Source: Emiliania huxleyi CCMP1516 (lineage: Eukaryota). From it: 64,000 nt of DNA. The translations under genes and the position numbers were made by a program. The notes below the pieces were generated by a model, which was not told where the DNA came from, did no database searches, and saw only the letters and a program-made list of their open reading frames with translations. Below are positions 7,101-61,279 of the stretch, one piece after another (within the stretch, counting starts at the first letter, position 1; each line of letters starts with the position of its first letter). Location of the stretch: assembly GCF_000372725.1 (NCBI RefSeq), contig NW_005201912.1:62001-126000 (forward strand), in the 5' to 3' direction.

Positions 7101-9067
7101 CCTGCCCGGCCGCCGCCGCGCCGGGCGGGTACTGCACGACAGGGAAGTCCATCCCCTCCATCTGCCCGTCGGCGTTGAAGGAGATGTTGCTGGTGAAGAA
7201 CTCGACGAGCGACGTGCTGCGGAGCGCGCTCGCCACGGCGGCCGTCTCGAGCGAGCCCGCCCGCTCGATGGCGTCGCCCAAGGTGCAGAGCGCCTATCAT
7301 TGACGTGTCGTTGTCATCCTCACCACAATGCCGTTGTTGCTCGATGGCGTCGCCCAGCGTGCGGAGCGCCGCGAAGGTCCCCGCCCCGTCAGAGTCGACC
7401 TTGGCCGGGTACACTGTGCGGCCGCCGAACGCCTTCAAGTACTCCTCCTCGTATTTCGCGCTGTCCCAACCGGAGAAATTGCCAATGTCGCTCGGCATCG
7501 ACGCGACCCACGGCACCGCCTGCAGAGCCGGGGAGCGAGGGCTAGTGGGCTCCACGCGCCGGTGAGAGCAGTGTGAGCGGTGTGCGTGTGCGTGTGCGTG
7601 GTGTGCGTGTGCGAGAGAGAGAGAGGCTGCCTCGAGTGCGTACTCGCCCTGCCACCAGCCGCCCCTCATCTTGCGGACGTATTCGTCGTTGAGGATCGTG
7701 TTTGTCAGGAAAGTGGCGAGCGGCGAGTAGGCCTCCTCCTCCTCCTCCAGGCCGAGTCGCTCCAGCTCCTCCACCTACAGCCTCGACGCATCTCGCGTGA
7801 TCTCGCGCAATCTCCGAGGCCGAGCCGCCCCTCCTCCTCCTCCACCGCGACGATGCCGCCGGCCTCGTACGAGCAGACGAGGACGACGGTGGCGCGCTCG
7901 TCCCGCAGATGCGCCAGCGCCCTCCGCATCTCCTGCCTGTACGTCGATGTGTTGACGCTGCTCCACTTTGGAACCGTCGCGTTCGCTACGATGCCGGAGC
8001 CGGCCGCGTCCGCAGGAGCCGTCAGGATCCGCGCCTTGGCGTCCTCCCACTCTTCTTCGCTGCCGCAGACCCCCCGAAAGGCAGTGTCGTCCTCCTCGAC
8101 GTACCTGCGGGACACACGTCGCGGAAAGTTTCATGGAAAGGGCCGCGAGGCGTCGCCGCCTCCCTTCTCTGCGAACCCGACTCGGAGGGCGCCCAAGCAG
8201 GTCTCGGAAGGTTCGCCGGCGCGGCGCACGCACTCCTTCTGGCAGTCGCACTCCCCGCCAGCATCGCAGCCAGTGTCGCAGTCCTCGGCAGCCTTCAGCA
8301 GCGCCTCGAACTCGCGCCTGTACGACGATACCTCGGCTGTATCTCGGCTGCATCTCGGCTGCGTCCCGGCTGCGTCTCTGGCCAGAGCAACGCCTCATAC
8401 TGCTGCGGGGCAGCATCCCAAACACGCGCAGCCCGAGGCCATTCTCTTGCGCCAGCGCGGCGGCCGAAGAGTAGACGGCGGGATCAGATGACGCTGGAGC
8501 GATCATCAGCTTGCTGTCCAGCACCGCCTGCTTGCTCGCGTAGGTGGTCAGCCCCGAGCCATACGGGCCGAGCAGGAAGTCTGCCGACGCGAAACCGCCC
8601 GACTCCGGGTGCACGAGGCGCGAGGTGGCGTTGGCGACCTGCAGCTGGCTACTGCTGTCTCCGAGGAAGACGCAATGTACGCCGTAGACGTGCGTCGCGT
8701 TGACTTTGATCCCGCCGCGGGGCACCAGCATCCGCGAGAAGAGGTCGCAGCTCCTCTGCATCTTAAGCGAGCTCGTATAGAACTGGTCTTCGGGCTGAAG
8801 CGACGCTGGCGCGCCGATGGTGATTACGCCCCTCGTCCTCTCGTTCTTGCACAGCTGATCGATGTCGGTCTCGAAGGTCAGATGAGGCGTGCCCGCTGGC
8901 AGTGACGGCACCGCTGTTGTGACATTCGTCCAGCAATAGCTTGGGTCGCACTGATCGTCAGAGCGGCCGCGTGTGTTTTCCGTCACCACGACGAGCGGCA
9001 CGTCGTACTTCTCCACGCACTCCGTGATTGTTGCCGCCGCTGCCGCTGTCAGGATCGGCAGCGCCAT
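4101..9067 (-). CDS. Multi-exon receptor-like protein: periplasmic-binding type 1 (Venus flytrap) ectodomain, EGF-like domain, TM helix, TIR domain, second TIR-like domain
   Basis: FLLGPYGSGLTTYA...MIAPASSDPAVY...VFGMLP and LGDAIERAGSLETAAVASAL...ISFNADGQ (Liv/ANF-type PBP1). CSGNGKCRFDGGCDCLPGFSGALC (EGF). VVTLIAALASGLIALCLCGGLCYL-RLQRRRR (TM). RYHVFLSHVWSSGQDQAKALK...FLDVDNLDD...VIVLLT...YMRSRNCLRELRAAV (TIR). FHVYYS...FLLYLNSSTF...EVREAL...LVLVHE (TIR-like). Confidence 0.75.
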
Positions 9068-9170
9068 CGGCGCTGGGTTGTAGCGGACTTGCCTGGGTTG
9101 TAGCGGACTTGCCTGCAGCTCAAAGCACACCGTCCGGCGTCCGCCGCATTTTGGAGTGGCAAAAGAATTT

Positions 9171-9226
9171 TACCCCGAGGCACGGGACTGGCGCTGGCAA
9201 TTCTTTCATTCTTTCTTTCTTGGCGC
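9171..9226 (-). mobile_element. Severely 5'-truncated insertion (3' end of non-LTR-like element) with 14-bp TSD
   Basis: TGGCAAAAGAATTT at 9157-9170 and 9227-9240 flank sequence (minus strand ttgccagcgccagtcccgtgcc) matching the 3' UTR at 25034-25060. Confidence 0.6.
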
Positions 9227-9374
9227 TGGCAAAAGAATTTCCTCGTTACGAGTTCTGCAAGTGCGTCAGCTGTTCCCTCGCCAGAGCCGCCCTGGATGTG
9301 CGAGGCTAGTGACCGCACTCCAAAGTGCTCCAAGACAAGTAGCAAGTTGCAAGAGAATCGTCCAAATAAGACTC

Positions 9375-17560: not shown

Positions 17561-17833
17561 CTCACCTGCCTGGCAACCCTGTCTGCACGTCTCGCGCGCG
17601 CGTGAACAGGGCTCCAGGCCCCAAATGACGTGTGAGTGTTAGAGTTGTTTGGTATTGCTAAAAATCTCTCTCTCTACCCACCCCGCCAGCCGCGCAGTCG
17701 CCCACCCGCGCACACGGCGGGTCCCCAAGGGGCGGCGAACAGAGCTGCGACTGGACGACTGCCAGGCGCGGCTCCGAGGAGCCGCTGAAGCCGAGGCCGA
17801 GCTTGCCGGCCAGGATCGACCCGGCCGCCAGCT

Positions 17834-23438: not shown

Positions 23439-24290
23439 TCACCGGGCGCCGGCAGCCTTGCTTCTTGAACACGCATGGATCCAAGTGGGTTTGGGGTGAT
23501 GTCCCATGACATGAAAGTCGTACGAGTCTTCGATCAATGCGGGCGAAAAGTAGGTTGCTGCTTCGGAGACCATCGACGCGCATTTGAGGAGAAAGTGGCA
23601 TCGCGAGAGCAGTAGCGTGTCCAGGAGCACGTCCATCCCGGCCGTTGCCGCCGCACTCTGATTGCCCCCATCAAGGACCGGATTACGAGAGCTCTCACTC
23701 CGTGGCAAGTCGCGTGCGACGATCTTGGTGGAGGGAAGTGCCGCGCGCAGGTCACGTAGCAAACGGAGCGCTGCGCGTGGCTCATGGCACAGGTAGGCGC
23801 GGATAAGCGGCATATAACTCTGTACACCGACGGGGCGTGTCGACATGACCACCTTATCTGTGCCACGCAAGTGCACGCCCAAGACGGTCGTGTCTGTAGC
23901 AAAGTGCTCGTTCCAGAAGGCACGAGCAGCCTCGGAGTAAACTCCTCGGCCTCGTTCTGAGACGCCGCCGCCGCCTGCCTGCCGATCCCTCGGCGTGGGA
24001 CGATGGGCAGCTGGCGGACGAGCTCAGCCCGCTGCCGCCGATGAATCAACGTGGCATTGTACCAGTTGCCGTTGACCGCTTCCTTGCTGGCGACGTGAGG
24101 GTAGTTTCCGTTGCTCTCCCATGCGCGTGCAGCTGCCCAACAGTCCAGCTGCAAGAGGGCCGCGCCTGTGGGTGCGCGCTATGGCTCAAAGAAATGGGGG
24201 TGCCTCCGTCGTACCCAGGCTCGAGTGCCTTAACATAGGACGCCCAGCCTTGCCCTCGTGCCGCCGAGTGCATATCCTATGCGAGAGAGA
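23439..24290 (-). pseudogene. NodZ/GT23-like fucosyltransferase-type pseudogene
   Basis: LGVHLRGTDK and LLDTLLLSRCHFLLKCASMVSEAA motifs. Upstream coding-like pieces sit in other frames, and the usual ATD motif segment is missing. Confidence 0.6.
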
Positions 24291-24599
24291 TCCCCTGTGC
24301 CCTGTGCCCAGCCCTCTCCGCGCGGCGATGCGCCCTCCCCCCCTCGCTTTTGCAAAATCCTGCAAAGGTGGGGACGTGTCTGTCCTCGACCCAGCCCTAG
24401 CTTGGGATGTCCGTTGTATTTATTTATTTATTCGAGTGCCTTGACGTATGGGTCCGACTATGGGTCATGGGGCATGGGCCCTACTGCGAGGAGGGGGAGG
24501 GGGGGAGGGGGGGGGTGGGAGAGGGGGAGGGAGAGGAGCAGGGGGGGGGGGGATAAGGATACCGGGGGGGCTGCTTTCAAGGGGAAAGGAACAACAAAG

Positions 24600-25086
24600 G
24601 CCAAAAAAGGCAAGGGACCCGGCGCTGGCATACCAAGGGGGGCAGGGTGCTGGGCAGTTACCCCCCCTTACCCTCCTACGGCGGGGACTATACCTTCTCC
24701 CAGGAAAAAAAGGGCGTTGAAGTGCAGCTGCTGCTGTTCGAATCGTTCGGCGGGTTCGGAAAGGGGGTCCGTGAGATCCTCCGGAAGGCGGCGGACGTGC
24801 TACAGAACAAGCTGACGCGGGCCCAGTACCTCGATGAGGTGACTTGGACCACTAAGAATTGGCTGGGGCTGCAGAAGCAGCGTATCTCAGTCGTTCTTCA
24901 CACGGCAATCGCAGAGCAGGTTGTGGATGAGCTTGCAGCCTGTGGCGGGGGTGGGCGGGTGCACGGAGCTAAGTGCCTCGCCACTCTCGCAGGAGTCGCT
25001 TAGTTAGGCGGCTCCCGTGGTGTACCTGTGTTATTGCCAGTGCGAGCCAGTCCCGTGCCCAGTGTTGTGCGAGGGGTCTTCGTTCT
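24600..25086 (+). mobile_element. 5'-truncated RLE-type (CRE-like) non-LTR retrotransposon 3' end with 3' UTR
   Basis: VQLLLFESFGGFGKGVREILRKAA...WLGLQKQRISVVLHTAIA, stop at 25003. Partial copies at 38190-38310 and 48977-49045; 3' UTR copies at ~52915-53005 and 9171-9200. Confidence 0.7.
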
Positions 25087-25226
25087 AAAATTCTTTTCAC
25101 TTCTAAGGAAGCCGTCGCCTGCGCCTTGTCTGTCGTGTGAATCGTGCGTGTGCGAAAGGCTTCGGTTCTAAAATTCTTTTCACTCCAGAGGAGTGTTGTC
25201 GGCGGTGCTCCTGTGCCTTTCCGCCC

Positions 25227-28200
25227 ATGGCGCTGCTTCGAACGGTCGAGACCGACCTGCGGAGCCTCTCGATGGAGGCGCGCCGCCGCTTCCCCGAGGT
25301 CAAGGAGGCTGCGGAGCGCGCGCTCCAGCGGCTGCGCACGGCGCAGGAGTCGCTGCGGCAGGATGCTCCGCTTGCTGAGCAGGCGGCGGCGGTCGCGACG
25401 TCGGAGGAGGTGCTCCTGCCCTTCACGCTCGCGCTGGCGTGCAAGTCGGAGGCTCTCCCTCTCTGTGCCCTCTCCGCCGTGCAGCGGATGATCTCGCACA
25501 GCGCCGTCGCGCCGGTCCATCTGCCCGCGATCGCGTCGCAGCTGATCGCGCGGGCGCAGATGCCGTCGGAGGACTCGATGCTGCTCAAGGTGCTTCAGAC
25601 GGTGCTGACGATCGCCTCCTCCCCGGCCCTCCTCCTTACCGACCTCCTCGTCTCCCAACTCCTCCTCCTCTGCCTCACGCTGCTCGGCTCTCGCTCAGTG
25701 ACCGTGAGGTGTGGAGAGCTCGCACAAACACTTCGCAGACACTTCGCAGAGAAAGAGACTGCGCGGACAGCCAGCGCGGACAGCGCGCGGGCAGCTCGCG
25801 GGCAGCTCGCGGGCAGCTCGCGAGACATTGCAATGTGTCCCGATGAGCCCGATCCGTGCCCCCGCCTTTCGCACCTCCCCGGCACCATCTCCTCCTCGCA
25901 TTCAATCTGAACGACGAATGACGTGAGGGGAAATGCGCACCTCCCAGGCACACGGCGTCCGCGACGGGGCAGCAGTTCGTCTCGCTCCTCCTCGACCTCG
26001 CATCTGCAGAGGCGGCCGCCGCCCAAAAGGATCCCCGCGCGCCGCCGCCCGCCGCCGCCGCGCCGTCCGCCGCCGCCTCGGCAGCGCGCGACCTATCGCG
26101 GCTGTCCGTCGCGGCACGGTGCGCGTACCTCGCGGTGGTGGACCTGTGCGACCTCGCGTCCGGCGAGCCGGCGCAGTGGCTCACCGGTCTCTCGTCGCCG
26201 GTGCCGACGGTGTTTGCGCTCGAGGTTGTGCAGCGAACGCTGGCCTCGCACGCGACGCTGTTCCTCGGCCAGCCCGACTTTCGTCACCTCCTGCACGAGC
26301 ACGTCTGCCCGCTCGCGCTCAAGTGCATGCAGCACACCGTGCAGCACCAGGCCGTGACCGACTGGGAGCACGCGCTGCGCGCCTGCCACCTCACCGCCAC
26401 CCTGCTGCTCAGCTACGCGCGCGCCGTCCGCACAGAGGCGGAGATTCTGCTCGTGACGCTTGGGAAGATGCTCGAGGCGGAAGGCACCCCCATCTGGCAG
26501 CGCGCGCTCGTGCTCGAGACCTTCCGCCTCCTCTCCTCGGACGCGCCGCTCCTCACCGCCATCTTCACCGCGTACGACCTCTCGCCCTCCTCCTCCAACG
26601 CGCTGGCCACCCTCGTCGGCGCCACAACCAAGCTGCTCACTTCGCCGCAAGTCGACTTTTTGGCGCACGCGGAGTTCATCGAGCCCCTCTTCCTGCGCCT
26701 CTCCCGCTCTGCCTCAAACTCGAAGGCCGCCACCTTCAACACCGCACTCTACTCGGAGGCGGACGGGTCTCACGTCACAAACGACTACGCCGCCGCTCTC
26801 GCCATCGAGTGCGTCCTCTCCTCCGCACCTCCCCACACCTCCCCACACCTACCCACACCTACCCACACCTCCCAAAACCTCCCCAAACCTCCCCACAGCT
26901 CCCCGCAACTCCCAACACTCCCCAAGATCTCCCACATCTCCCCACATCTCCCCACAGTCCCCCACACCTCCCACAACTTCCCCAAGGGGCGTCCTCTGCT
27001 CGGACCACTCCCTGCCTGCCCTCTCCGTGGCCGCGCTCCCCCCGTTCCGTCTGACGTTTCCGAGTGCGTCCAATGTCCCCCGGTGGCCCCCCCCACACTC
27101 TCTCTCGGGCGCGGCCCTTTGCCCATACCCACGGTGCCCGCCGGTCAAACACTTGGGGCCCCCCCCCTNNNNNNNNNNNNNNNNNNNNNNNNNNNNNNNN
27201 NNNNNNNNNNNNNNNNNNNNNNNNNNNNNNNNNNNNNNNNNNNNNNNNNNNNNNNNNNNNNNNNNNNNNNNNNNNNNNNNNNNNNNNNNNNNNNNNNNNN
27301 NNNNNNNNNNNNNNNNNNNNNNNNNNNNNNNNNNNNNNNNNNNNNNNNNNNNNNNNNNNNNNNNNNNNNNNNNNNNNNNNNNNNNNNNNNNNNNNNNNNN
27401 NNNNNNNNNNNNNNNNNNNNNNNNNNNNNNNNNNNNNNNNNNNNNGCACACCTCCACGCACCTGCTGCACCTCCACACACCTCCCCACACCTCCCCAGGA
27501 CTGCCCACACCTCCCCACACCTCCCCACACCTCCCCACACCTCCCCACACCTCCCCACACCTCCCCACACCGCCCCACACCGCCCCACACCTCCCCACAC
27601 CGCCCCACACCGCCCCACACCTCCCCGTACCTCCCCACACCTCCCCACACCTCCCCACACCTCCCCACACCTCCCCACACCTCCCCACACCTACCCACAC
27701 CTACCCACACCTCCCCACACCTCCCCACACCTCCCCACGCCTCCCCGCACCTCCCCACACCTCCCCACATCTCCCCACATCTCCCCACATCTCCCCACAT
27801 CTCCCCACACCTCCCCACACCTCCCCCAGGTGCGTCCTCTCGTTCGTCCACTCCGTCGTCGCCCTCTCGGAGCGCGCGGCCGCGCACGGCACGGCGAGCG
27901 GCGAGGAGGCGGCCAAAGGCGGCGGGGTGGAGCGCGCAAAGATCGTCATCGGGGGCGTGCACTTGTCGATGTCGGAGGCGGCGCGCGGCGAGATGCAGCT
28001 GGTGCGCTCCCTCGTCTCGACGTGTTGGGTCCCGCTCTGTACCTCCCTCGCGCTGGCGACGGCGCGCTTCTCTTCCGACGAGTCGCGTGACGTTCGTAGA
28101 CACTTCCGAGACACTTCCGAGACACCTCCGAGACGCTTCCTAGGCGCGCTTCTCTTCCGACGAGGCGGTGCAGGCGACCCTCAAGGCCTTCCAGGCCTTC

Positions 28201-34044: not shown

Positions 34045-34150
34045 GTTCTCGGGTCCGTTGGCCTCTTTTGTGTAGAGAAGAATTTTGTACACCCGTCACC
34101 CGTCAAGACGCCTGCTGGGGGCAGCTTCGTAACGAAGCCGTCTGCTCCCC
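34045..34150. repeat. Dispersed ~100-bp repeat with hairpin (copy 1; copy 2 at 40480-40580)
   Basis: Shared gttggcctcttttgt...gaagaatttt...cccgtcaagacgcctgctgggggcagcttcgtaacgaagccgtctgctcccc. Confidence 0.85.
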
Positions 34151-38090: not shown

Positions 38091-38189
38091 GAAACGCCCA
38101 GTGTGGTTCTTGATCATACGTAACGTAATCGGTTTCTTTCTTTACACGAGGGCATGGAGGGGGAGAGGAAGAGCAAGGGCGAGAGAGGG

Positions 38190-38310
38190 CAAGGGACCGG
38201 GCGCTGGCATACCAGGGGGGGAATGGTGGTGGGCGGCGACCGCCGCATATCGTCCTATGACGGCGAGTGTCGCTACGCCAGGGAGGACAAGGACGTCGAC
38301 GTGCAGCTGA
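38190..38310 (+). mobile_element. Internal fragment of the same non-LTR family as 24600-25086
   Basis: aagggacc.ggcgctggcatacca...cctaygrcgg.ga.t...gtgcagctg aligns to 24612-24730. Confidence 0.6.
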
Positions 38311-39181
38311 AAAGATTTATGTATATAAGTAGAGGAACGAGTCGAGAGGACAGGGAGGGACGTGTCCAGGGGGGGGACAGCTCAGTGTCGGATTGCATCT
38401 CGGCTGCATCAATGGCGGATGGGCGGCCTCGGATCACGGTCACGTCGGCGAGGACAGCGACGGCGTCGTTGGTGGCGCGCAGGGGCGAGGGCGTCGACCG
38501 ACGGGCGCCGCATCAGGGACCCCTCGCTGGCGAGCGGCTGGCGCGGGAGGTCACGGAACGTCGGGTCGAACGACGGGTCGAGCTCCCCCCTCCGCCGGTC
38601 GAGGCCGCGGTCGAGACGGTGAGCGCGCGGCCGAGGTCCTCGCGGGCGTGGCCGAGTATGGCCCGAACTACTCGCTGCCGCAGCCCGCGGAGTCTAAGAC
38701 GGCGCGGCGGAAGCGGCTGCGCCTGGACGCGGCGGCGAGGATCGCCGGGCACGCCGTCGTCGAGGCAGGCACTCACGTGGAGATCCTGGGCGAGCACCAT
38801 CACGGGGCGGGAGGAGGATTCGGCACGGGGCGGGAGGAGGATTCGGACGGCCGGCTCGTGCACGCGGTCGAGTACGATGGCTACCCCGACCAGGATTTCC
38901 GGCTCAACCCTAGAGGAAGTGTCGTGGAGGCGGGCGACGCTCGGCGCCGGCGGCGCGGCCCCCACCAGCGGCGAGGTCAGCGACGNNNNNNNNNNNNNNN
39001 NNNNNNNNNNNNNNNNNNNNNNNNNNNNNNNNNNNNNNNNNNNNNNNNNNNNNNNNNNNNNNNNNNNNNNNNNNNNNNNNNNNNNACCGCCGCCGCCGCC
39101 TCTGATGCATCCTCCGCCGCCGCCGCCGCCGCTGCCGTCGCCTCAGCTGCACGGGGAGCGTCAACCACAGATGCTGGTTGA

Positions 39182-39472: not shown

Positions 39473-39519
39473 CAGCCCAAATGAAGAGAATCGCGGCAGT
39501 TTCCTTTTCGCCCGTTTTT

Positions 39520-39600
39520 CTCCTTAAAATCCCTGTGTGGTGGCGGCGTGCCGTCCTCCCATCCCTCCCTTGGGTTGTCTGTTTTTCTTTCTTTCTTACC
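39520..39600. repeat. Dispersed repeat family (other copies at 53100-53195 and 60330-60388 + 61280-61305)
   Basis: ccttaaaatccctgtgtggtggcggcgtgccgtcctcccatccctcccttgggttgtctgtttttctttc. Confidence 0.85.
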
Positions 39601-40290: not shown

Positions 40291-41015
40291 AGGAGCGCTG
40301 CCTCTGCTCGGCACGTGTGTGTGCAAAGTGTTTTGTGTGTGAGGCGCGGTCAGACGGGCGTGGCAGCTTGTGTACAAGGTCTGTAGTACACGCCGTACGA
40401 AAAAGGCCGCCGCGACCCGCGCGTGTGGTGTGTGTGGACTGCACAGAGACTGTTTTTTCACAGAGACACGGCCCCCTTTCTCGGGGTCGGGCGCGTTGGC
40501 CTCTTTTGTAGGGAAGAATTTTGATACCCGTCAAGACGCCTGCTGGGGGCAGCTTCGTAACGAAGCCGTCTGCTCCCCCAGCAGGCACACACTAGACAGA
40601 TAGGAGGAGAAAGGGGACGGTGGTGGGTTTAGGGTTGCCTAACGTTAATTTGGGGCCTAACAGTTGCGCTATTGTTGGCTGAAATCCTCAACGTTGGTCA
40701 AGTGTTCTCCCCAGCCCAAGCTGTTACTGTTTGGTACTGTTGTTACTGTTGTTCAGCGGCCAGCAAGCGAAAAATGGCAAAAAAACCCGGGGAAAACCCT
40801 AAAATACCCGGGAATTTTCGGGGATTTTCGGGTATTACCCGCACTGGACACTACAGATCGTCGGGGGGCATTGGCCGGCCCTTCCTTAATGTTGTTCAGC
40901 CGGGCCTAACCTTAANNNNNNNNNNNNNNNNNNNNNNNNNNNNNNNNNNNNNNNNNNNNNNNNNNNNNNNNNNNNNNNNNNNNNNNNNNNNNNNNNNNNN
41001 NNNNNNNNNNNNNNN

Positions 41016-42277
41016 CGCGGAAGTAGAGCGTGCATCCGCGAAGCGTACGCCTGACTCGCGCGCTCTCGTTCCGACCTGGACGTCGAGCACGGCCGCGTAT
41101 GCACGGAGTAATCGTCATCTTCAAGCCGTTCATCGTCGGGTGATGGGTGAGGGTCCACGTGCCGAGAAAGGCGTCGGGGTCGGACTCCGACGCCTTGACC
41201 ACAGACTCATCGGCGGGGAAGGAGGCGGAGGCGACGCCCGGACGAGGCGGCGTCGGTGGCGGTGGCAATGGCGGCGGCGCACGGCCGGTTTTGCAGACGG
41301 CGGCAGCGACGAGCGTCAGCATATACACAAATGCAAACACCTGGCGACAAAAGGCGTCTCATATCCGCGACATTTTTTTTCTGCGATGCGTTCAAAGAAA
41401 AGTTCTTCTCAATAGCAAGGAGCTATGAAGCGCACACACAGCGGGGGGGGGGGGGGGTGATCGGGCTGCGGGCAGGAGAGCCCTTACCCCTTATACTACA
41501 CAAAATAAAGAGAACCGCGTTTTCCCGCTTGAAATAAAGAAAACACACTCCGGCCGGCCGGTGCAACAAGTATATGCCAGCCCGCGTCAGCGCCGCGCGC
41601 CGCAAGCCGCCGCCTCTGCGCCGCCTCCGTGCAAGCATTCGGAAGGCCGCCTGGGATGGCCAAGTGGGAGCGGTGCTGGCGTGGCTCGACGGCGGCGGGC
41701 GGGTCGACGAGACGTTCTCTAGGGCGCCAAGTGGGAGCGGATGGGCGAGAAAGAGAAAGAAAAGGAAAAAGAAAAGCAAGCCCCGCCGTGCAAAGCCAGC
41801 GCGGGAGGAGGCGCTCGCCCGTCCGCAACCCCGCCCGTTTGCATGCCCGGCCGAGCGAAGGCTGGCTCGGCCGCCTCCCGGCGCGGGCACGCTTCTACGG
41901 CGGCTACTGCTGCGCCGCTCGCGCTGCCGAAAAGGATCGAGGCGGCGGCGGCGGACGGCAAGGTGGGCGTGGTGCAGACGTGGCTCACCGGGGATGGGCG
42001 GGTTGATGCGACGTGCGTGCGTCGCGGTGTCAGTGGCTGTACGCTCCTGCTGATCGCCGCCGAACACGGTCACAAGCAGCTCGTTGAAGTGCTGCTGAAG
42101 CGCGGCGCGGAGGCGGACGCGCGAGACAGCGAAGGCAGTTTTTCGCTGATGGCCGCCGCCGCCAACGGCCACGAGCGCGTGGCCGAGATGCTGCTGCGGC
42201 ACGGCGCGGAGACCAACCTGCAGAGCAGCGAAGGAGGCACCGCTTCTGATGCTCGCCGCCCTCGGCAACCATCCCGC
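41016..42277. repeat. Local segmental duplication of 42621-43650 (secreted-protein fragment on minus strand plus ankyrin 5' region)
   Basis: Long near-identical blocks with indels. The ankyrin copy has an extra T near 42244 and ends at a gap. Confidence 0.85.
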
Positions 42278-43217
42278 NNNNNNNNNNNNNNNNNNNNNNN
42301 NNNNNNNNNNNNNNNNNNNNNNNNNNNNNNNNNNNNNNNNNNNNNNNNNNNNNNNNNNNNNNNNNNNNNNNNNNNNNTGGGTTGTTATGATCGCCTAATA
42401 TCGCCTAATGCCTGATATCGCCTCTAATATCGCGCAATATTGCGCAATATTGCGCAATATATCGCGCAATATCGCGCACCCTCGCGCACCCTCGCGCACC
42501 CCCTCGCCCCGGCGGCGGACCGCGGCCGCGGATTTCTTTGTTTTCGGCGGAGACCATCTAAAGCTGGCGGCGCAGCCGGCGCGCCTGCGGCGCGCCGTGG
42601 TTTCTAAATTTTCGCGACGTCGCGGAAGTAGAGCGTGCCGTCCGCGAAGCGTACGCCTGACTCGCGCGCTCTCGTTCCGACCTGGACGTCGAGCACGGCC
42701 GCGTATCCACGAGTAATCGTCATCCTCAAGCCGTTCATCGTCGGGTGATGGGTGAGGGTCCACGTGCCGAGAAAGGCGTCGTCGGAGTCCGACGCCATGA
42801 CCACAGACTCATTATACTACACAAAATAAAGAGAACCGCGTTTTCCCGCTTGAAATAAAGAAAACACACTCCGGCCGGCCGGTGCAACAAGTATGTGCCA
42901 GCCCGCGTCAGCGCCGCGCGCCGCAAGCCGCCGCCTCTGCGCCGCCTCCGTGCAAGCATTCGGAAGGCCGCCAGGGATGGCCAAGTGGGAGCGGTGCTGG
43001 CGTGGCTCGACGGCGGCGGGCGGGTCGACGAGACGTTCGTACGGAGCGGATGGGCCAGCAAAGAGCAAGAAAAAAGAAAAAGAAAAGCGGTGCGTGCAAT
43101 CGTGTGTTTGGCGTCATGTCGTGTGTGCCTTCGCTTGTTCCTTTTCACAACGAAGTCTGCTCAAAAAGAAAAGCAAACGACCGTCCGCAACCCCGCCCGT
43201 TTGCACCGCCCGTTTGC

Positions 43218-45136
43218 ATGCCCGGCCGAGCGAAGGCTGGCTCGGCCGCCTCCCGGCGCGGGCACGCTTCTACGGCGGCTACTGCTGCGCCGCTCGCGCT
43301 GCCGAAAAGGATCGAGGCGGCGGCGGCGGACGGCAAGGTGGGCGTGGTGCAGACGTGGCTCACCGGGGATGGGCGGGTTGATGCGACGTGCGTGCGTCGC
43401 GGTGTCAGTGGCTGTACGCTCCTGCTGATCGCCGCCGAACACGGTCACAAGCAGCTCGTTGAAGTGCTGCTGAAGCGCGGCGCGGAGGCGGACGCGCGAG
43501 ACAGCGAAGGCAGTTTTTCGCTGATGGCCGCCGCCGCCAACGGCCACGAGCGCGTGGCCGAGATGCTGCTGCGGCACGGCGCGGAGACCAACCTGCAGAG
43601 CAGCGAAGGAGGCACCGCTCTGATGCTCGCCGCCCTCGGCAACCATCCCGCCGTGGTGCTTCGCTTGCTGCGGGCGGGCGCGGACATGGCGCTGCGCACT
43701 GCGGCGGGCGAGACGGCGCTGCAACTCGCCAAGGAGGAGGGCCACGCCGAGTGCGTCGAGGCATTCAGGACGTATCTCGGCGAGGTGACGACGGGCCGGC
43801 GCGAGGCGCCATCGGCCGAGGCGGGCGGCGCAGGGGCGGGCGGCGCACCCGCAGGCGAGGCGGCGGCGGGCGCCAGTGCCGTGGTCTCTGCCTCGAGCGG
43901 CGAGGGCGCGGAGGCCGCGCCGGGCAGCGAGGCGGTGCCAGAGGAGGTTGTGGACGCGGCTGAGGATGGCGATGAGGAGCCGGTGCTGGCGTGGCTCGAC
44001 GGCGGCGGGCGGGTCGACGCGACNNNNNNNNNNNNNNNNNNNNNNNNNNNNNNNNNNNNNNNNNNNNNNNNNNNNNNNNNNNNNNNNNNNNNNNNNNNNN
44101 NNNNNNNNNNNNNNNNNNNNNNNNNNNNNNNNNNNNNNNNNNNNNNNNNNNNNNNNNNNNNNNNNNNNNNNNNNNNNNNNNNNNNNNNNNNNNNNNNNNN
44201 NNNNNNNNNNNNNNNNNNNNNNNNNNNNNNNNNNNNNNNNNNNNNNNNNNNNNNNNNNNNNNNNNNNNNNNNNNNNNNNNNNNNNNNNNNNNNNNNNNNN
44301 NNNNNNNNNNNNNNNNNNNNNNNNNNNNNNNNNNNNNNNNNNNNNNNNNNNNNNNNNNNNNNNNNNNNNNNNNNNNNNNNNNNNNNNNNNNNNNNNNNNN
44401 NNNNNNNNNNNNNNNNNNNNNNNNNNNNNNNNNNNNNNNNNNNNNNNNNNNNNNNNNNNNNNNNNNNNNNNNNNNNNNNNCGGCGTGGGCTGCTGGGGCG
44501 GCAGAGAGGGCGGCGCAGAGGGCGGCGGAGGAGAAGGAGGCGGCGCGGCACGCCGAGGAGCTGCTGGCCGAGGTCGAGGCGGAGAAGCGCGCCAAGGGCA
44601 AGAAGGGCAAGAAGAAGAAGAAGGGCGGAGGGGCGGGCGGGGCGGGGCCGTCGGAGGAGACGGAGGCGCCAAAGGCAGCCGCAGCCAAGCCCGCGCCGTT
44701 GGACAGGGAGGGGCTGCTCCGGCTTCTCGCGGAGCTCCACGAGGACAGGATCCGGTTCGGCATCACGCCGGAGACGTCGGTCGAGGGATTGGCGGAGGCG
44801 CTGGGAGAGGCGGCGGGCGAGGCGAGCGAGGAGGAGGGCGACGAGGAGACGGCGGAGGCGGCCGAGGAGGAGGCCGACGAGGCGGGCGAGGCGAGGGAGG
44901 TGGCCGCGGAGGCGCGACGGAAGGCGGAGGCCGAGGCGGCCGTGACAGCGGCAGCGGCGGCGGAGGAGGAGGAGGCCGCGGCGGTGGAGGAGGAGGAGGC
45001 ACTGGCGGCAGCGGAGGCGGTGGCGGAGGCGGCCGTTGCCGCCGCCAAGGCGAAGCGCGCGGCCCGCACAGCCGCCGCCAGGGCCAGGGCAGAGGCGGCC
45101 ATGGCGGCAGCAGAGGCGGCAGCAGAGCTCTCGTAG
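43218..45136 (+). CDS. Ankyrin-repeat protein with Ala/Glu/Lys-rich coiled-coil tail (spans N-gap)
   Basis: GCTLLLIAAEHGHKQLVEVLLKRGA, SLMAAAANGHERVAEMLLRHGA, GGTALMLAALGNH; after the gap EELLAEVEAEKRAKGKKGKKKKK. Confidence 0.75.
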
Positions 45137-46372: not shown

Positions 46373-48373
46373 CTAGCTAGTTTCGAACGCCGCCTCCCAG
46401 TCCGCAGCATGTGGGGCTAGCGAGGCGGCGAGCGGGGCTGCGGGACTCGAGTCGAACCCCGCCGGCGGCGACTCGAACCCGGCGGGCGGTGAGAGCAAGC
46501 TGGACAGCACTGGAGCGCTCGGCGGGGCATACGGCGAGAGGCCGCAGTCGTGGGCTGCACGGATCGTGAATGGCTTGGCGGGCTTCCGCTTCTTTGCCGC
46601 AGAGGCCGCCGCCGGGGGCGAGCCTCGCGGCCCCTTCGACGGCACCTCGCCAACTTGCACCGCATCGGATTTGGGGCTCTGCAGTGCCGGCGGCGCTCCG
46701 AACGGAGGGTCAAAGAACGGGTTGCCTGACCCTGCGCACGCCGGTGGCGAGCCGACGGCGAGAGCCGTTGGCTCGCGGCCACCGGGGGCAAGGGTAGTAG
46801 CCGTGGTGGGGAGCAAGTGCTTGTCGGACGAGCCTGTCGCGAGCATGGCGTCCCGCGCCACAACCCCGACCTGAGACGAGGTGTGTAGGTGTTCTAGGTG
46901 AGGTCGCTCCTCCATCTCACGCCACGCACGAGATACAGCCTCGAGGTTGCAGGTAAAGGGCAAGGGCCTTGAGAGCGGTGGTGGTGGGGTGCGCGGTGAA
47001 GGCGCGGTGGTGGTGGGCGGCGGCGGTGGTGGTGGTCTTGGGTGGGGGGTTGAATGGGGGTGGAGTGGTGACGTACCTGGAGGTTATTGTTTTGTGCGTG
47101 GTGGTGGTGGTGGGGGGGGGGGGGGGTTGCGTGCCTTGGGCGCGCCCGAACCGGAGATATCGTCCATCCCGCCCCACTCGTCGGGAGAGGTGAAGCCTCG
47201 GCGGGCCCGGCCGCTCTTCTTTTGCTGCGCGGTGCGACCCCGGACGGCACGCGGGCGGACGCCTGGTGGCAGGGCTGGGGCTAGGATTTGGGGAGTATGC
47301 CCCCCAGCCACGGAGGGCGAGCGGAGTGGCGAGGGGTAGGCGCGAGGGGGGCGGTGAATGAAAGATGTGTGGTGGCGACTGTCAGTGGCGAGATGCGAGG
47401 GCAGAGAGGGGGAGCGAGTGGCGCCTCGGAAGGCACAGAAGCCAGCGACAACCAGGCAAAAGCCGATGAGAGGCAGGAGACTGACGAGGAGTGCCGGGGA
47501 CCCGGTGTTCGAGTCTGGTGAGGATGGAGGCGACGGAGGTGACGGAGGCGAAGACGGAGGCGACGGAGGTGACGGCGGCGACAGCGGAGGCGGTGGGGCT
47601 GGCGGAGACCGAGGCATCGGGGGCTGCGACGGCGGGCTTGAGGGAACTGGCGGCGACCCGGGTGGTGGCGGCACAAACGGCGGAGAGGGAGGCGGCGGCG
47701 ACGGCGGGCCCGGAGGGGGCGAAGGCGGCAGAGGCTGGCGAGGTGGCGAGGGGGGGGGCATCGACGGGGGAGGAGAGGAGGGCGGCGGGAGCGGCGGAGG
47801 CGCCGGCGGCGGCGGCGAGGGCGGAGCGGGCGACGGGCAGAACCCGCAGGAGAAGTCGCAGGCGCCTGCCAACGGGCACGAGGAGCAGTAGTCGTCGCCG
47901 CATTGCGGATCCGCTGTATCTTTTGGGCACCCGGCTTTCAGTTTCTCGGTGCAAGGGTAAGGAGCGACCGGCGGCGGTGACGACGGTGGCGGTGGCAGGA
48001 GCGGCGGAGGCGCCGGCGGCGGCGGGGACGGCGGCGGCGATGGCGGCGGCGACACTGGCGGCATCGACGGGGGTGGAGGAGAAGGCGGTGGCGGGTGCGA
48101 GCAGAAGCTGCAGGTGAAGTCGCAAAAGTGCGGTTGGTGGCAGTCAAGGCAGAACTGCGTGCCGCACAGACCCTGATTGGCTTGGCAGAACGCAGCTCCC
48201 GCCGTTTCTTTGCAGTCCTCATACGGGATGGATGGCGGCAGCGGCGGCGGCGGTAGCAGCGGTGGTGGCGGTAGTGGTGGGCTTTGCGGGGAGGGTGAGA
48301 GTGGGCTTTGTGGCGACGGGGTGGGGGAGCTCGGTAACGCCGCCACTTTCACGGCTAGCAGAGGAAACATCAT
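46373..48373 (-). CDS. Proline-rich cell-surface protein with two ShK-like Cys modules and a TM helix (3' exon structure uncertain)
   Basis: MMFPLLAVKVAA signal-like start; C...C...C..FC..C....CDFTCSFC and C...C...C..YC..C....CDFSCGFC separated by PPSPP linkers; LLVSLLPLIGFCLVVAGFCAF. Confidence 0.65.
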
Positions 48374-48445
48374 CAGTGCGATTGTGGGACGCTGTCGATC
48401 CAAGACGAGTCGTCGACACGGTGCTTGGATTATAAAAAGAATTTT

Positions 48446-48747
48446 GGACTCGCACTGCAAAGGCGACGGCTTAGAAGCCGTCGCCCTCACAGATGCCGTC
48501 CTCCTCACAGAAGGCGTCGCCGGAATGGTAGTTAGGCGGATGGTCGAATCCGCGAGCACCGTGGTGCTCGCCGAGAGGACCATCCCCATCATCCTCCGAC
48601 TCCATCCCCTCCCCCCCCGTCGCTCCCGCCGCGCCCCCCGCCGGCGCCCGTCGCGGGACTTCCTGCCCCCCCCGCCAGCGCCGCGGGCCGGGCCGCTCCG
48701 CAACTCCTCCAGGTCCCCCTCAAAGAGGAGGACCCGCCCCTCCCTCA
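48446..48747 (-). mobile_element. Insertion flanked by 15-bp direct repeats TATAAAAAGAATTTT
   Basis: Repeats at 48431-48445 and 48748-48762. Contains the ggcgacggcttagaagccgtcgcc hairpin, part of which is shared with 25100-25120. Confidence 0.55.
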
Positions 48748-49927
48748 TATAAAAAGAATTTTAACCTAAACTCCGTCGCACGACACTAGGCGAGGGGCCC
48801 CGCCACGAGAAGTGCGTTCTGGGGATGCAGAGCGTGCAAAGCGGCTAGGGATGAGGCCACAAAAGAGGCGCGCGAGACAAGGAGGAGAATCGGAGAACGG
48901 AGAGACTGGGACGACTGGACACAAGAAGACAGTGAGCCACCCACAGGCTGAATTCCGAACTAAATCAAAATTTCATGGTTCAGGAAGGGGGTCGGCGAGA
49001 TCCTCTGGAAGGCGGCGAACGTGCTGCAGAACAAGCTGACGCTCATGTGCAAGCCGCGAGGTGTGTAGCCAGCCAGATCCAGCTGCGCAACGCGAGCGGA
49101 GCGAGCGAAGCGCCAGGACGATGTGCTCCACGGCGCACGTCCCTTTGTAACGCTTCACACGCCGTCGCTATGACATGCTATGAAAGGGTTCGCGAGCATC
49201 GCACAACATCGCCGTTTATCGCATTTTATCGCCAAATATCGCGCGGTATCGCAGTTGCGATATTGTGAAAAATTCCCGCTAGACTAGGGGTAAGTCTGTG
49301 GCTAAGTCGAGATGGGGCAGCGAGCGGCCGGTCAGGTCGACTCGCCAATGCCCAGCCCGCTTGTGGCTGCCACGACACATGGCCTCTTGGACCTTGCCGA
49401 GCAAGGTCCACTTCGGCTAAATTCACGCCCCAAACGCTACTATTTGCTCAGGCCAAGTCCAGACACACTAGAGGACTGCCTGAGCACACAGGGGCATGTA
49501 CTACTTACTATACTCACACCTACTATGCTGTTTTCACACCGATCATAATACGCGATCGCGCAGATGGCGTGCAGGAGGCGCTTACAGCCGCCGTCCATCC
49601 AGCACGTGCTGCGCCAGCGCGCAGCGGCCAACCGAGGATCCCGCCATCGGTCGCCAACTGCTTGCAACGCACACATCGGCTGCCACCGAGTATGCGGAGT
49701 CTGTGTCAGACATCTTTTCCAACGCCGACTTTTCGGGCTCGGCGAAGCGCTACTAGTACCAGAAATCCAAAGGTTTTTCTTGCGGCCTGCTTTTTGCCCG
49801 GCCGCACGCAGCGCTAAGCGGGCGTCCTTTTTATCGGGCGTCCTTTGCTCCTCCGCGAGCTGGAAAGCCGCCCAAAAATCTGCCAAAAATTAGGAAGCGC
49901 CGGAGATATAACTGGGGCCCCGGACGT

Positions 49928-51961: not shown

Positions 51962-52847
51962 TCAGGACAGCAACGCGACTCCGGGAGAGCGCCGCGTCAT
52001 CGCCACCGGCGCCACCGCCTCCCACGCATTGGCAGCCGGATGGTACCGCTCGACTGTGTTCATCGGGCCGTCGGTGTCATCGTCTCCCACGCCCACGCCG
52101 CCGAAAGCATACATGATACAGCGTGCCGCACTGCACTGCCGCGCCTGGGGCGTATCGTGCCACCGTCATGGGCGCCACCGCCTCCCATACGTTCGTCGCG
52201 GGATCGTACCGCTCCACCGAGCTGAGGTGGCCGCCGCCGAACCCGCCAACAGCATACAGCTTGCCGTCGAGCACCGCCGCGCCGAGATGAGACCGCGCTG
52301 ACGCCATCGGCGCCACCGCCTCCCACGCGTTCAGCGCGGGATCGTACCGCTCCACCGATCTGAGTTCGTTGCCGTCGTACCCGCCCACAGCGTACAGCTT
52401 GACATCGAGCACCGCCACGTCAAGATCGCCCCGAGCCGCCGACATCGGCGCCACCGCCTCCCATGCTTTCGTCGCCAAGTCGTACCGCTCCACCGAGCTG
52501 AGGGCGCCGTCGTTGGGCTCCCAGCCGCCCACTGCATAGAACTTGCCGTCAAGCACCGCCTTACCGACATTGAATCGTGTCGTCGGCATCGGCGGCATAG
52601 TCTCCGCTTACCCCTCCCACTCGTTCGTAGAGGGGTCGTACCGCTCGAGCGAGTTGAGCACCTCGCCATAGCCGAGGCCGCCGACCACGAGCAGGCGCGG
52701 CCGCTCGCGCTTCTTCAGCGTCTCCTTCCAGCCGCGGCGCCACGCGCGGCACGTCCCCTTGGCGGCGTGCTCCGTGGTCGGCAGCTGGGCGAGGATGTGC
52801 GGGGCGAGGTCCGGCGAGAGGAGGACCTCGGAGAGGATCCAGGGCAT
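51962..52847 (-). pseudogene. F-box-like + kelch-repeat pseudogene (stop/frameshift at ~52608, disruption near 52140)
   Basis: LLSPDLAPHILAQLP...CRAWR, then repeated AVLDGKLYAVGG...SVERYDPA.NAWEAVAPM kelch units across broken frames. Confidence 0.8.
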
Positions 52848-53459
52848 GAAGGTTTGCAGCGAGAATCGGCGAGGGATTGCGCGAAGAGAAGCGTAGGAAA
52901 GAGTTTTACAACAAACCAACAGAAAACTCCCTCGCACGGGACACTGGCTGGGCACGGGACTGGCGCGCACTGGCACTAAACACACACACAGGTACACCAC
53001 TTGGGTTGTCCGTTTTCTTTCTTTCTTTCGATAGGAAGAGGCAGACGCGCCCCAAGGGGGTGGGCGACGGAAGTGGCGACGGCTCTAGCACCACACTCCT
53101 CCTCCTTAAAATCCCCTGTGAGCTGTGTGGTGGCGGCGTGCCGTCCTCCCATCGCCATCCTCCCTCCCTTCGGTTGTCTGTTTTCTTTTTTTCATAGGCT
53201 GTCACATACAGTACGCGCGCATACATTGCGGTATTTTAATAAATAACGAGCCTGTAACGAGCCAGATGTTGACGTGTTTAACCATTTTAACGGCGTGTGT
53301 CGTCCTATCCGCTATTTGGACCAGGTACCAATTTTGTCGAATTTATTTCAAAATCTGCAGGCGCGGAGCGCCTGCGAAAATTTTGAAGAAATTTGCAGTC
53401 CCGCGGGCCTGATTTTCATCAAGATCTTTCAAATTTGCGGTGTGGAGTTGGGGGGTGTG

Positions 53460-53529
53460 GGTTAGGTTAGGGTTATTAGGGTTAGAGGGTTAGGGTTAGG
53501 GTTAGGGTTAGGGTTAGGGTCAGGGTTAG
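53460..53529 (+). repeat. Interstitial telomere-type (TTAGGG)n tract
   Basis: TTAGGG units with variants. Confidence 0.95.
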
Positions 53530-53813
53530 TCTGGTTGTGTCTGCATATGCTACGGGTCCCTAGTATGGGTTCGTCCCCTGTTCACAGCAGTGCGGGGTCC
53601 CCTGGGGGTAGGGGACCCCCGGGGAGTACCAGTATGGATTTCTTTTTCGGCCGCCAATTCCAGGGCTGCATTTCTTCTTCGGGCGGGCGGAAAAAAAAGT
53701 GGCGGTGATTGCAATTTGAGAGTGGTATATGCCAGCGTTGCAGGGTTCTGCGCTGGTATCTGGCCCCACAGCGCCGACGACTAAGACTCAGCCCCAAACG
53801 CTGACCTACGGCT

Positions 53814-53859
53814 TTAGGGTTAGGGTTAGGGTTAGGGTTAGGGTTAGGGTTAGGGTTAG
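53814..53859 (+). repeat. Interstitial telomere-type (TTAGGG)n tract
   Basis: Perfect TTAGGG units. Confidence 0.95.
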
Positions 53860-53964
53860 TCTTTTCTTGCTTGTGTTTGTATGCCAGCGTTGCAGAGTTC
53901 TGCGCTGGGATCTGGCCCCAGCGCCGACGAGTAAGACTCAGCACCGCACGCTGACCCCACCAAA

Positions 53965-60179: not shown

Positions 60180-60388
60180 AGGCCGGTGCCCAGGAGCACA
60201 GCGAGCGTGCAGAAGTTACGCCGACAACAGAAAGCAACAAAAAGAATACGCATTGAAGACGAAGAAGTGGACCTATAGGAAGAGGCGGACGCCCAAGGGT
60301 GGGCGACGGCTAGCGCACCACACCCCTCTCCTTAAAATCCCTGTGTGGTGGCGGCGTGCCGTTCTCCCATCCCTCCCTTGGGTTGTCT

Positions 60389-61279
60389 CTGAGGGAGGGT
60401 GTAGAGGATGTAGAGTGTAGAGCGCTGTAGAGCTGTAGAGATGTAGAGCGCTCTGGAGCGCTGTAGAGCTGTAGAGCTCTACATCGGGCACGGGACGAAC
60501 TGCGTGCGTTGTAGAGCGATGTAGAGCGCGATTTTGTTGTAGAGTTTGTTGTAGAGGCTCTACAGCCAACCCGCCGGGAAGGCAGTGACTCAAAGAGGTC
60601 GAGTCGCACTAATGGGGTGTCTCCGAGCTTACTGGAGCTCTGATGGACAGCCCTGACTATCCCTGACACACACAGAGTCACTCTGATGGCACACAACACC
60701 CCATAACTGCGTCATCACCAGCCTGCCATGCGTCGCCGGTGCCGCATTCGTCGCAGTGCTTCTTTAGCAGGCGATGGACTGTCGGCGGCGAGGACGGTCG
60801 CATTTGCGCAAGGCGAGGCGAGCATTCAGACGCGTTGCATGCGCCATGACTCGCGCCAGCGCGTGCGGGAGCTCCTGGCTGAGCGTTGAGTCCAGGCGAG
60901 TTGCGCTGGCCACGATCGCTACGCCGAGCCGAGCTGACGCGCCGAGGCGCCGGCCAGTCGCAGCCGTGAGGCATGCCACAGCAGCAGAGGCACCTCCCAC
61001 CCATTGGGCGGGCAGACAGAAGGCCAGGGCAGCACTGGCGAGTGCAACGCGCCTCATGTCGGAGAGCGACCGTGCCTCGTTCGCCGCTTTTGATGTAGAG
61101 TTTGTTGTAGAGATTTCACGTTGTAGAGCGCCTCTACATCGCTCTACAACGCACGCAGTTCGTCCCGCGGCGGATGTAGAGCTCTACAGCTCTACAGCGC
61201 TCTACAGCGCTCCAGAGCGCTCTACATCTCTACAGCTCTACAGCGCTCTACACTCTACATCCTCTACACCCTCCCTCAG
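60389..61279. mobile_element. 891-bp non-autonomous DNA transposon; long TGTAGAG-rich TIRs; 8-bp TSD GGTTGTCT
   Basis: Begins CTGAGGGAGGGTGTAGAGG and ends CCTCTACACCCTCCCTCAG. TSD at 60381-60388 and 61280-61287. Uninterrupted host repeat at 39570-39600. Confidence 0.92.

What the first reader, a model, noticed from the sequence alone, without database searches (positions are those of the whole stretch)
24600..25227. Promoter-targeting non-LTR retrotransposon: stacked 3' ends at AAAATTCTTTT just upstream of start codons
The RLE/CRE-like element ends at GTTCTAAAATTCTTTTCACT, and this 20-mer recurs ~83 nt later around a second short insert, ending ~45 nt before the MON2 ATG. The same configuration (related 3' end, motif, co-oriented gene 50-100 nt downstream) occurs at 9157-9240, 48431-48800 and ~52898-53005, three times with the motif duplicated. 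RLE elements are known to be site-specific for rDNA, SL-RNA, snRNA or microsatellites. Targeting a Pol II core-promoter-like motif, regenerated by each TSD, would be an unusual safe-harbour strategy.
Basis: partly seen in the sequence, partly recalled or inferred. Interest (0 to 1): 0.8.

Follow-up and report, generated by a model that had tools for sequence, protein, structure and literature searches.

The report
Retrotransposon stacking just before gene starts
In a bloom-forming calcifying alga, a high-copy R2-like retrotransposon leaves short stubs stacked at TTCT sites tens of bases before protein-coding genes, mostly pointing the same way as the gene, likely because it inserts at open gene starts, a target not found in our literature searches for this element class.

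Summary
Observation confirmed; interpretation partly right. The element is the 3' end of a high-copy RT-plus-RLE non-LTR retrotransposon of Emiliania huxleyi.

AAAATTCTTTT is not a core-promoter motif. It is a junction: the element ends ...GTTGTAAAA and the target begins TTCT(Y)(Y). In 9 of 23 called target-site duplications the upstream copy has no A's, while the downstream copy almost always has AAAA. AAATTCT lies before only 2 of 19 predicted element-free starts.

The positional claim holds beyond the window. In metagenome copies the first downstream coding segment is co-oriented in 46 of 52; upstream it is 16:15. A Pfam-only check gives 10:2. The median distance from motif to ATG is 89 nt. 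At MON2, RNA contigs of one study begin about 13 nt after TTCT, a weak hint of the start site.

Each insertion regenerates and improves the target, which explains the stacks. Whether the bias comes from targeting or from later selection is not resolved. New variant of a known kind.

The parts
24557..25003 (+). Family A: C-terminal remnant of the RT-RLE ORF (5'-truncated copy)
   Evidence: 148-aa frame; 67% identical over 106 aa to the C-terminus of a 1439-aa single-ORF relative, P0268; many E. huxleyi copies
25004..25090 (+). Family A 3' UTR, ending GTTCTAAAA (most common form in other copies GTTGTAAAA)
   Evidence: Summed contig depth about 3000 times that of MON2, a rough figure; 122 metagenome loci; junction table
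25082..25101 (+). Upstream copy of the 20-nt duplication made by the family-B insertion
   Evidence: the private G-to-C variant (GTTCT) is in both copies and in 0 of 54 other ends
25102..25173 (+). Family B short 3' stub with the same terminus; stem-loop-rich 3' region
   Evidence: Six other loci match; fold z -2.3 here, about -6.5 in longer copies
25165..25184 (+). Downstream copy of the duplication; target proper TTCTTTTCACT = 25174-25184
25187..25187 (+). Possible MON2 transcript start (weak hint)
   Evidence: RNA contigs X11 and X12 (one study) begin 31 letters before 25210; X13 begins 18 before; DNA contigs go on for 47-95
25227..25709 (+). MON2 first exon
   Evidence: PF16213 DCB, E 1e-26; RNA contigs leave the DNA after 25709
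24232..24431 (+). Unrelated high-copy repeat (family C, (TTTA)n end) next to the 5' side of family A
9157..9241 (-). About 55-nt family-A stub between 15-nt duplications, no older element upstream; ATG at 9067
48431..48791 (-). A-like 3' end, motif, 302-nt family-B insert, motif; putative ATG near 48370
52895..53005 (-). Family A 3' stub with a variant junction, before the Kelch gene at 52847

Best explanation
These are 5'-truncated copies of at least two high-copy RT-plus-RLE non-LTR retrotransposon families of Emiliania huxleyi that end in GTTGTAAAA, join a genomic TTCT(Y)(Y) site with a short target duplication, and sit co-oriented just before protein-coding gene starts, likely because insertion itself favours TTCT sites at open gene starts. 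Inferred mechanism: target-primed reverse transcription. The bottom (template) strand is nicked at TTCT or up to about 9 nt upstream of it, the top strand about 9-11 nt into the target, and priming is helped by pairing between the RNA end and any A's already there. The gene keeps a full copy of the target on its side. Each event leaves GTAAAA|TTCT, a better site than the original, so later copies of families A and B stack there. Shown: junction anatomy, stacking, co-orientation, closeness to ATG. Inferred: nick positions, position relative to the transcription start, and that targeting rather than selection makes most of the bias.
For: Class: RT motifs and RH..E..PD..D.K in relatives, N-terminal C2H2-like fingers, all 7 Foldseek hits at E<=0.001 are R2. 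Junction: 46 of 57 intact ends are followed by TTCT; TTCT is at the 5' junction in 64 of 104 copies against 11 and 9 in control windows; duplication starts exactly at TTCT in 9 of 23 and ends mostly at +9 to +11. Position: downstream co-oriented 46 of 52, upstream 16:15, Fisher p 4.5e-4; 39:5 in the 79 long loci alone; Pfam-only 10:2 downstream and 2:4 upstream; co-oriented coding within 300 nt in 22 of 60 against 15% window background. TTCTYY sites in the window's intergenic DNA are only 50:33 co-oriented, less than 46:6 (p 4e-4). The bias is present in the least diverged copies, 11:3.
Against: Only 23 of 60 testable copies have a callable duplication, and the shuffled-pair rate at that score is 24% (15 of 60 against 6.6% at the stricter score). 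The bias rises with divergence (11:3, 10:2, 23:1), as selection would predict, though the numbers are small. Three copies lie 80-103 nt from the start of a divergent gene, antisense to it (L002, L021, L042). The distance advantage of downstream over upstream starts is not significant (p 0.063). The start-site hint rests on contigs of one study. Other repeat families also crowd these regions. All copies are survivors in natural populations, and short-read contigs favour short stubs.
Confidence: 0.58

Rival explanations
1. Loose TTCT preference plus selection: the element inserts at T-rich intergenic sites in either direction, and copies antisense to a nearby start, or inside genes, are purged, or sense copies are kept because the AT-rich end suits a promoter.
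For: Co-orientation is strongest in the most diverged class, 23:1 against 11:3; antisense promoter-proximal copies exist; families C, E and F also gather upstream of genes; TTCTYY is already 60% co-oriented in the window.
Against: The least diverged class is still 79% co-oriented; most stubs are under 100 nt, so a strong cost of orientation is not obvious; selection does not explain stacking at one site.
Confidence: 0.27
2. One reading: AAAATTCTTTT is a host core-promoter motif that the endonuclease recognises.
For: About 7 of 16 sites with no older element end upstream carry 2-4 A's of their own (my reading); window site 9241 is one; L014 has AAATTCTTT about 50 nt before a predicted start with no masked repeat; the RNA start hint at MON2.
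Against: 9 of 23 upstream copies have no A's; the motif is at 2 of 19 predicted element-free starts, equal on both strands, and both sense hits appear to lie in L014. Several of the 19 may be internal exons.
Confidence: 0.08
3. The whole motif is the element's own RNA end, and stacks come only from self-targeting, with no host target.
For: AAAA is element-supplied; 7 of 23 upstream copies look like older element ends; RNA running on into TTCT could pair with the primer, which DNA cannot exclude.
Against: TTCT lies in 5' flanks, also where no element precedes it (window 9241); self-targeting alone does not place first insertions at gene starts.
Confidence: 0.07

Closest known systems
RLE non-LTR retrotransposons of the CRE clade (CRE, R2, R4, NeSL mostly target-specific; HERO mostly not; PMC4640811, passages read)
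   Same: Single ORF with N-terminal C2H2-like fingers, RT and a C-terminal PD-(D/E)xK endonuclease; 5'-truncated copies; fold closest to R2.
   Different: Targets listed there are multicopy: rRNA, spliced-leader exons, tRNA, snRNA, transposons, microsatellites, telomeric repeats. Here the target is a 4-6 nt site before many different single-copy genes. The CCHC knuckle before the endonuclease looks degenerate (expected pattern recalled).
Dictyostelid TRE5 / NLTR-A and yeast Ty3 (PMC5911963, passages read)
   Same: Position- and orientation-biased insertion next to a transcription unit; TRE5 ORF1 binds TFIIIB.
   Different: They target Pol III genes; TRE5 is L1-clade with an APE endonuclease and inserts in the opposite orientation; Ty3 is an LTR element.
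Schizosaccharomyces pombe Tf1, Drosophila P, maize Mu (recalled, not read)
   Same: Prefer Pol II promoter or 5' regions.
   Different: They use an integrase or transposase; no element-supplied end that rebuilds the target for stacking.
Human L1 and Entamoeba EhLINE/EhSINE (L1 recalled; PMC3118788 abstract only)
   Same: Short, loose, T-rich endonuclease preference and dispersed copies.
   Different: No co-oriented clustering at gene starts is known to me for them; L1 uses APE and a long poly(A) tail.

Membership tests
RLE-type non-LTR retrotransposon | RT domain and C-terminal PD-(D/E)xK endonuclease in one ORF | tested here: met
   In relatives: RVT_1 hits, motifs, Foldseek top 7 all R2. The window holds only the last 148 aa or so, linked by 67% identity.
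RLE-type non-LTR retrotransposon | Fixed 3' end, variable 5' truncation, target-site duplication | tested here: met
   a duplication is callable in 23 of 60 copies only.
RLE-type non-LTR retrotransposon | CCHC zinc knuckle before the endonuclease | tested here: not met
   No CCHC pattern at that place in alignment A1; the expected pattern is recalled.
CRE clade | N-terminal C2H2 fingers, single ORF, no ORF1 | tested here: inconclusive
   C2H2-like patterns seen by eye in P0074, P0081, P0268; no Pfam zinc-finger hit for them.
CRE clade | RT tree groups with CRE1 / SLACS / Cnl1 | not testable with these tools
   No named CRE sequence was returned; the CRE label rests on recalled motifs.
Sequence-specific RLE elements (R2, NeSL, Utopia type) | Long conserved target in a multicopy gene or repeat | tested here: not met
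   Conservation fades within about 8 nt after the start of TTCT and flanks are unrelated.
Host core-promoter motif | Enriched at a fixed place before element-free starts | tested here: not met
   2 of 19 sense, 2 of 19 antisense; small set of predicted starts.
Promoter-tethered elements (TRE5 / Ty3 type) | Contact with transcription machinery sets the insertion position | not testable with these tools
   Needs biochemistry or de novo insertion maps.

The most novel reading that the evidence does not exclude
An RLE retrotransposon lineage that homes on Pol II transcription starts: it nicks the template strand about 13 nt before the start site, perhaps in the open or paused complex, duplicates the last 11 or so bases before the start so the gene keeps them, and adds an AT-rich end that becomes both the upstream promoter flank and the next landing site. 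A sizeable share of coccolithophore genes would then carry strain-variable retrotransposon stacks at their promoters.
Probability: 0.3. Interest if true: 0.85.

Novelty: new variant of a known kind. Interest (0 to 1): 0.62.

Why it matters
Specific RLE elements are known for multicopy RNA genes and repeats, and position-specific non-LTR elements for Pol III genes. A co-oriented preference for Pol II gene starts would be a third survival strategy. It would give a natural R2-like enzyme with a short target, and a ready source of promoter variation in a globally important alga. It is directly testable with existing long-read genomes and full-length cDNA. Practical point: many public E. huxleyi gene models have absorbed this RLE tail.

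Tried and rejected
No whole genome is held for this window, so genome-wide counts were not possible. Viral contigs gave 0 DNA hits and 0 confirmed relatives. P0024 alone gave no Pfam family, no useful PDB sequence hit and a useless fold, pLDDT 36. The protein atlas did not answer. Three look-ups of earlier findings were empty.

A search for short duplications starting after TTCT in the 37 copies without a called duplication was inconclusive: 6 of 37 at 7 nt or more against a 6.5% null, four of them starting at TTCT.

No clean empty allele was seen. No laid contig spanned the MON2 stack; one X7 contig joins 24231 to 25210 with unseen letters between.

Relic spliced leaders or retrocopied genes were rejected, because duplications flank the stubs and MON2 keeps its introns. 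Zepp was dropped as a CRE comparison: PMC9940879 (passages) calls Zepp-like elements L1. Family A's 3' UTR in the window has no unusual fold (z -0.2). Family E gave 8:8 downstream orientation, but only in loci picked through family A, so it is no fair control.

Full report
1. Observation. The sequence is as described. The 20-mer lies at 25082 and 25165 and ends 42 nt before an ATG that opens a Mon2 DCB domain. The 11-mer occurs 7 times with at most one mismatch, against 0.05 expected. At 9157-9241 and 48431-48762 it is duplicated with four locus-specific bases behind it. At about 52907 a variant stands once before a Kelch gene. The genes at 9067 and 48370 have no Pfam support.

2. Organism and element. 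Named homologues of the 24677-25000 frame are all Emiliania huxleyi gene models. The cluster of the best long relative includes a 1439-aa single ORF (P0268), 67% identical to the window's tail over 106 aa, and a member labelled E. huxleyi. Relatives carry RT motifs and an RH..E..PD..D.K endonuclease, with the CCHC knuckle apparently lost. A 13-sequence fold (pLDDT 67) hits only R2 structures at E<=0.001. The CRE label is likely but rests on recalled motifs. Contigs of three DNA runs pile on the 3' end at thousands of times the MON2 depth; the tool warns that this is no copy number.

3. What the motif is. After dropping L019, which is the same contig as L018, 126 oriented copies remained. Seventy have AAAATTCT (at most 1 mismatch) within 60 nt, and conservation fades over the next few bases. 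Most copies are tiny: 100 of 111 have under 50 nt upstream of the anchor, partly an effect of short-read assembly.

Of 60 testable copies, 23 have a duplication scoring 8 or more (null 24%) and 15 score 11 or more (null 6.6%). The start falls exactly at TTCT in 9 of the 23 and never later, although shorter duplications would fall below the threshold. The downstream copy has A at 22-23 of 23 per position, the upstream copy at 10-14 of 23. Independently of that call, TTCT lies at the 5' junction in 64 of 104 copies, against 11 and 9 further upstream, and it follows 46 of 57 intact ends. So the element supplies GTTGTAAAA and the host supplies TTCT(Y)(Y), often with some A's of its own or from an older element.

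At MON2 both copies share the private variant GTTCT, seen in 0 of 54 other ends. Family B therefore inserted second and duplicated 20 nt, including A's terminus. The first nick can lie up to 9 nt upstream of TTCT (inferred).

4. Is it a promoter motif? Among 35 predicted gene starts, 19 had no masked repeat within 250 nt. AAATTCT was in the last 150 nt of 2 on the sense and 2 on the antisense strand, and TTCTYY of 5 and 7. Some of these starts are probably internal exons. The set is small, but it argues against a general core-promoter motif.

5. Is the position special? A codon Markov model trained on 14 window stretches called the right frame in 97% of 60 held-out 180-nt pieces. It was then self-trained without regard to element direction. 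The first coding segment downstream of the element was co-oriented in 46 of 52 copies with a call; two of the 46 are stacked RLE fragments. Upstream it was 16:15 (p 4.5e-4). At a stricter score the figures were 32:6 and 13:12.

A model-free check on 252 ORFs from 63 oriented loci gave 12 Pfam hits: 10 sense (among them ubiquitin, ribosomal S10, Psb28, Nramp, alpha-galactosidase) and 2 antisense (p 0.039). Upstream, 145 ORFs from 37 loci gave 2 sense and 4 antisense. Co-oriented coding began within 300 unmasked nt in 22 of 60 copies, against 15% of window intergenic positions. The last motif lay a median 89 nt before the ATG in the 15 of 23 loci where it could be measured. Strand asymmetry of TTCTYY in the window (50:33) does not account for 46:6, but that control comes from one window.

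Against: three copies sit 80-103 nt from a divergent gene's start, antisense to it, and the bias rises with divergence (11:3, 10:2, 23:1).

6. Start site and other strains. The two runs whose letters were shown carry a variant stretch before 25210 with 9 extra bases, and most other laid MON2 contigs also leave the window sequence there. RNA contigs X11 and X12 (one study) begin 31 letters before 25210, equal to about 25187: 13 nt after TTCT and 3 nt past the duplication. X13 begins 18 before, X14 gave only fragments further in, and DNA contigs continue 47-95 letters. Contigs cannot show a start, so this is a weak hint. If the unseen letters match the window, the X6, X7 and X10 contigs break within 7 nt of the AAAA, as alleles differing at this junction would cause. 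One half-depth X7 contig joins 24231 to 25210 with other letters between. No empty allele was read.

7. Mechanism. Target-primed reverse transcription is established for the class. Shown here: composite junction, duplication ending about 9-11 nt into the target, stacking, co-orientation, closeness to starts. Inferred: a preference at insertion for TTCT at accessible gene starts, amplified by self-made sites, with selection adding to it (0.58). Rivals: selection on loosely targeted insertions (0.27), a true host motif (0.08), pure self-targeting (0.07).

8. Literature. Ten full-text searches found no paper on this element or on an RLE element at Pol II starts; two searches returned zero papers. 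I read passages of PMC4640811 (known RLE targets), PMC5911963 (TRE5, NLTR, Ty3), bioRxiv 10.1101/2024.05.26.595999 (automatic repeat annotation; lower CG methylation upstream of the start codon in highly expressed genes; TEs not more methylated), PMC12480563, PMC12477816 (CRE families with thousands of copies in Ectocarpus) and PMC9940879, and the abstract of PMC3118788. Repbase, the 2013 genome paper, subscription journals and the preprint's supplements were not seen, so the family may already be named there. Tf1, P, Mu and L1 are recalled.

9. Verdict. A real and strong pattern, with a corrected reading of the motif and an open choice between targeting and selection. New variant of a known kind; interest 0.62.

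Noticed in passing
window 39519-39599, 53075-53179, 60275-60519: Another high-copy repeat (family E) with a (TTTC)n end lies upstream of genes; its tail contains TTCTTT and hosts family-A insertions in L025 and L062.
   Followed up: partly
window 17608-17675: Repeat family F ends in AAAAA followed by (TC)n in many loci, possibly a microsatellite-targeting or microsatellite-tailed relative; it lies about 170 nt before ORF 17834.
   Followed up: partly
window 34049-34150 and 40487-40578: Two-copy repeat holding AAAATTCTTC internally, antisense near the 3' ends of neighbouring genes.
   Followed up: partly
window, upstream of 23029 (-), and L032 upstream of its predicted start: Two element-free starts share AAAACTTC(A)CGTGAC about 70-85 nt before the ATG; a possible real promoter motif.
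   Followed up: no
window 25188-25209: Differs from runs X5 and X12 by a 9-nt gap, one extra base and one substitution in the MON2 5' UTR.
   Followed up: yes
window 38157-38318 and 48977-49042: Internal family-A fragments without a 3' end, both antisense to the nearest gene start.
   Followed up: no
window about 53460-53860: Interstitial telomere-type repeats next to the stack upstream of the Kelch gene.
   Followed up: no
window 41486-42277 and 42807-43651: Near-identical duplicated start of an ankyrin gene across an assembly gap; possibly two haplotypes.
   Followed up: no
proteins P0002, P0008, P0010, P0025, P0033, P0035-P0039, P0044: Public E. huxleyi gene models fuse the RLE tail to host genes, likely annotation artefacts.
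   Followed up: partly
L116 356-586: A 5'-truncated copy of the sister family (96% identical to P0024) inserted directly behind a family-A junction, so a third family uses the same site.
   Followed up: partly
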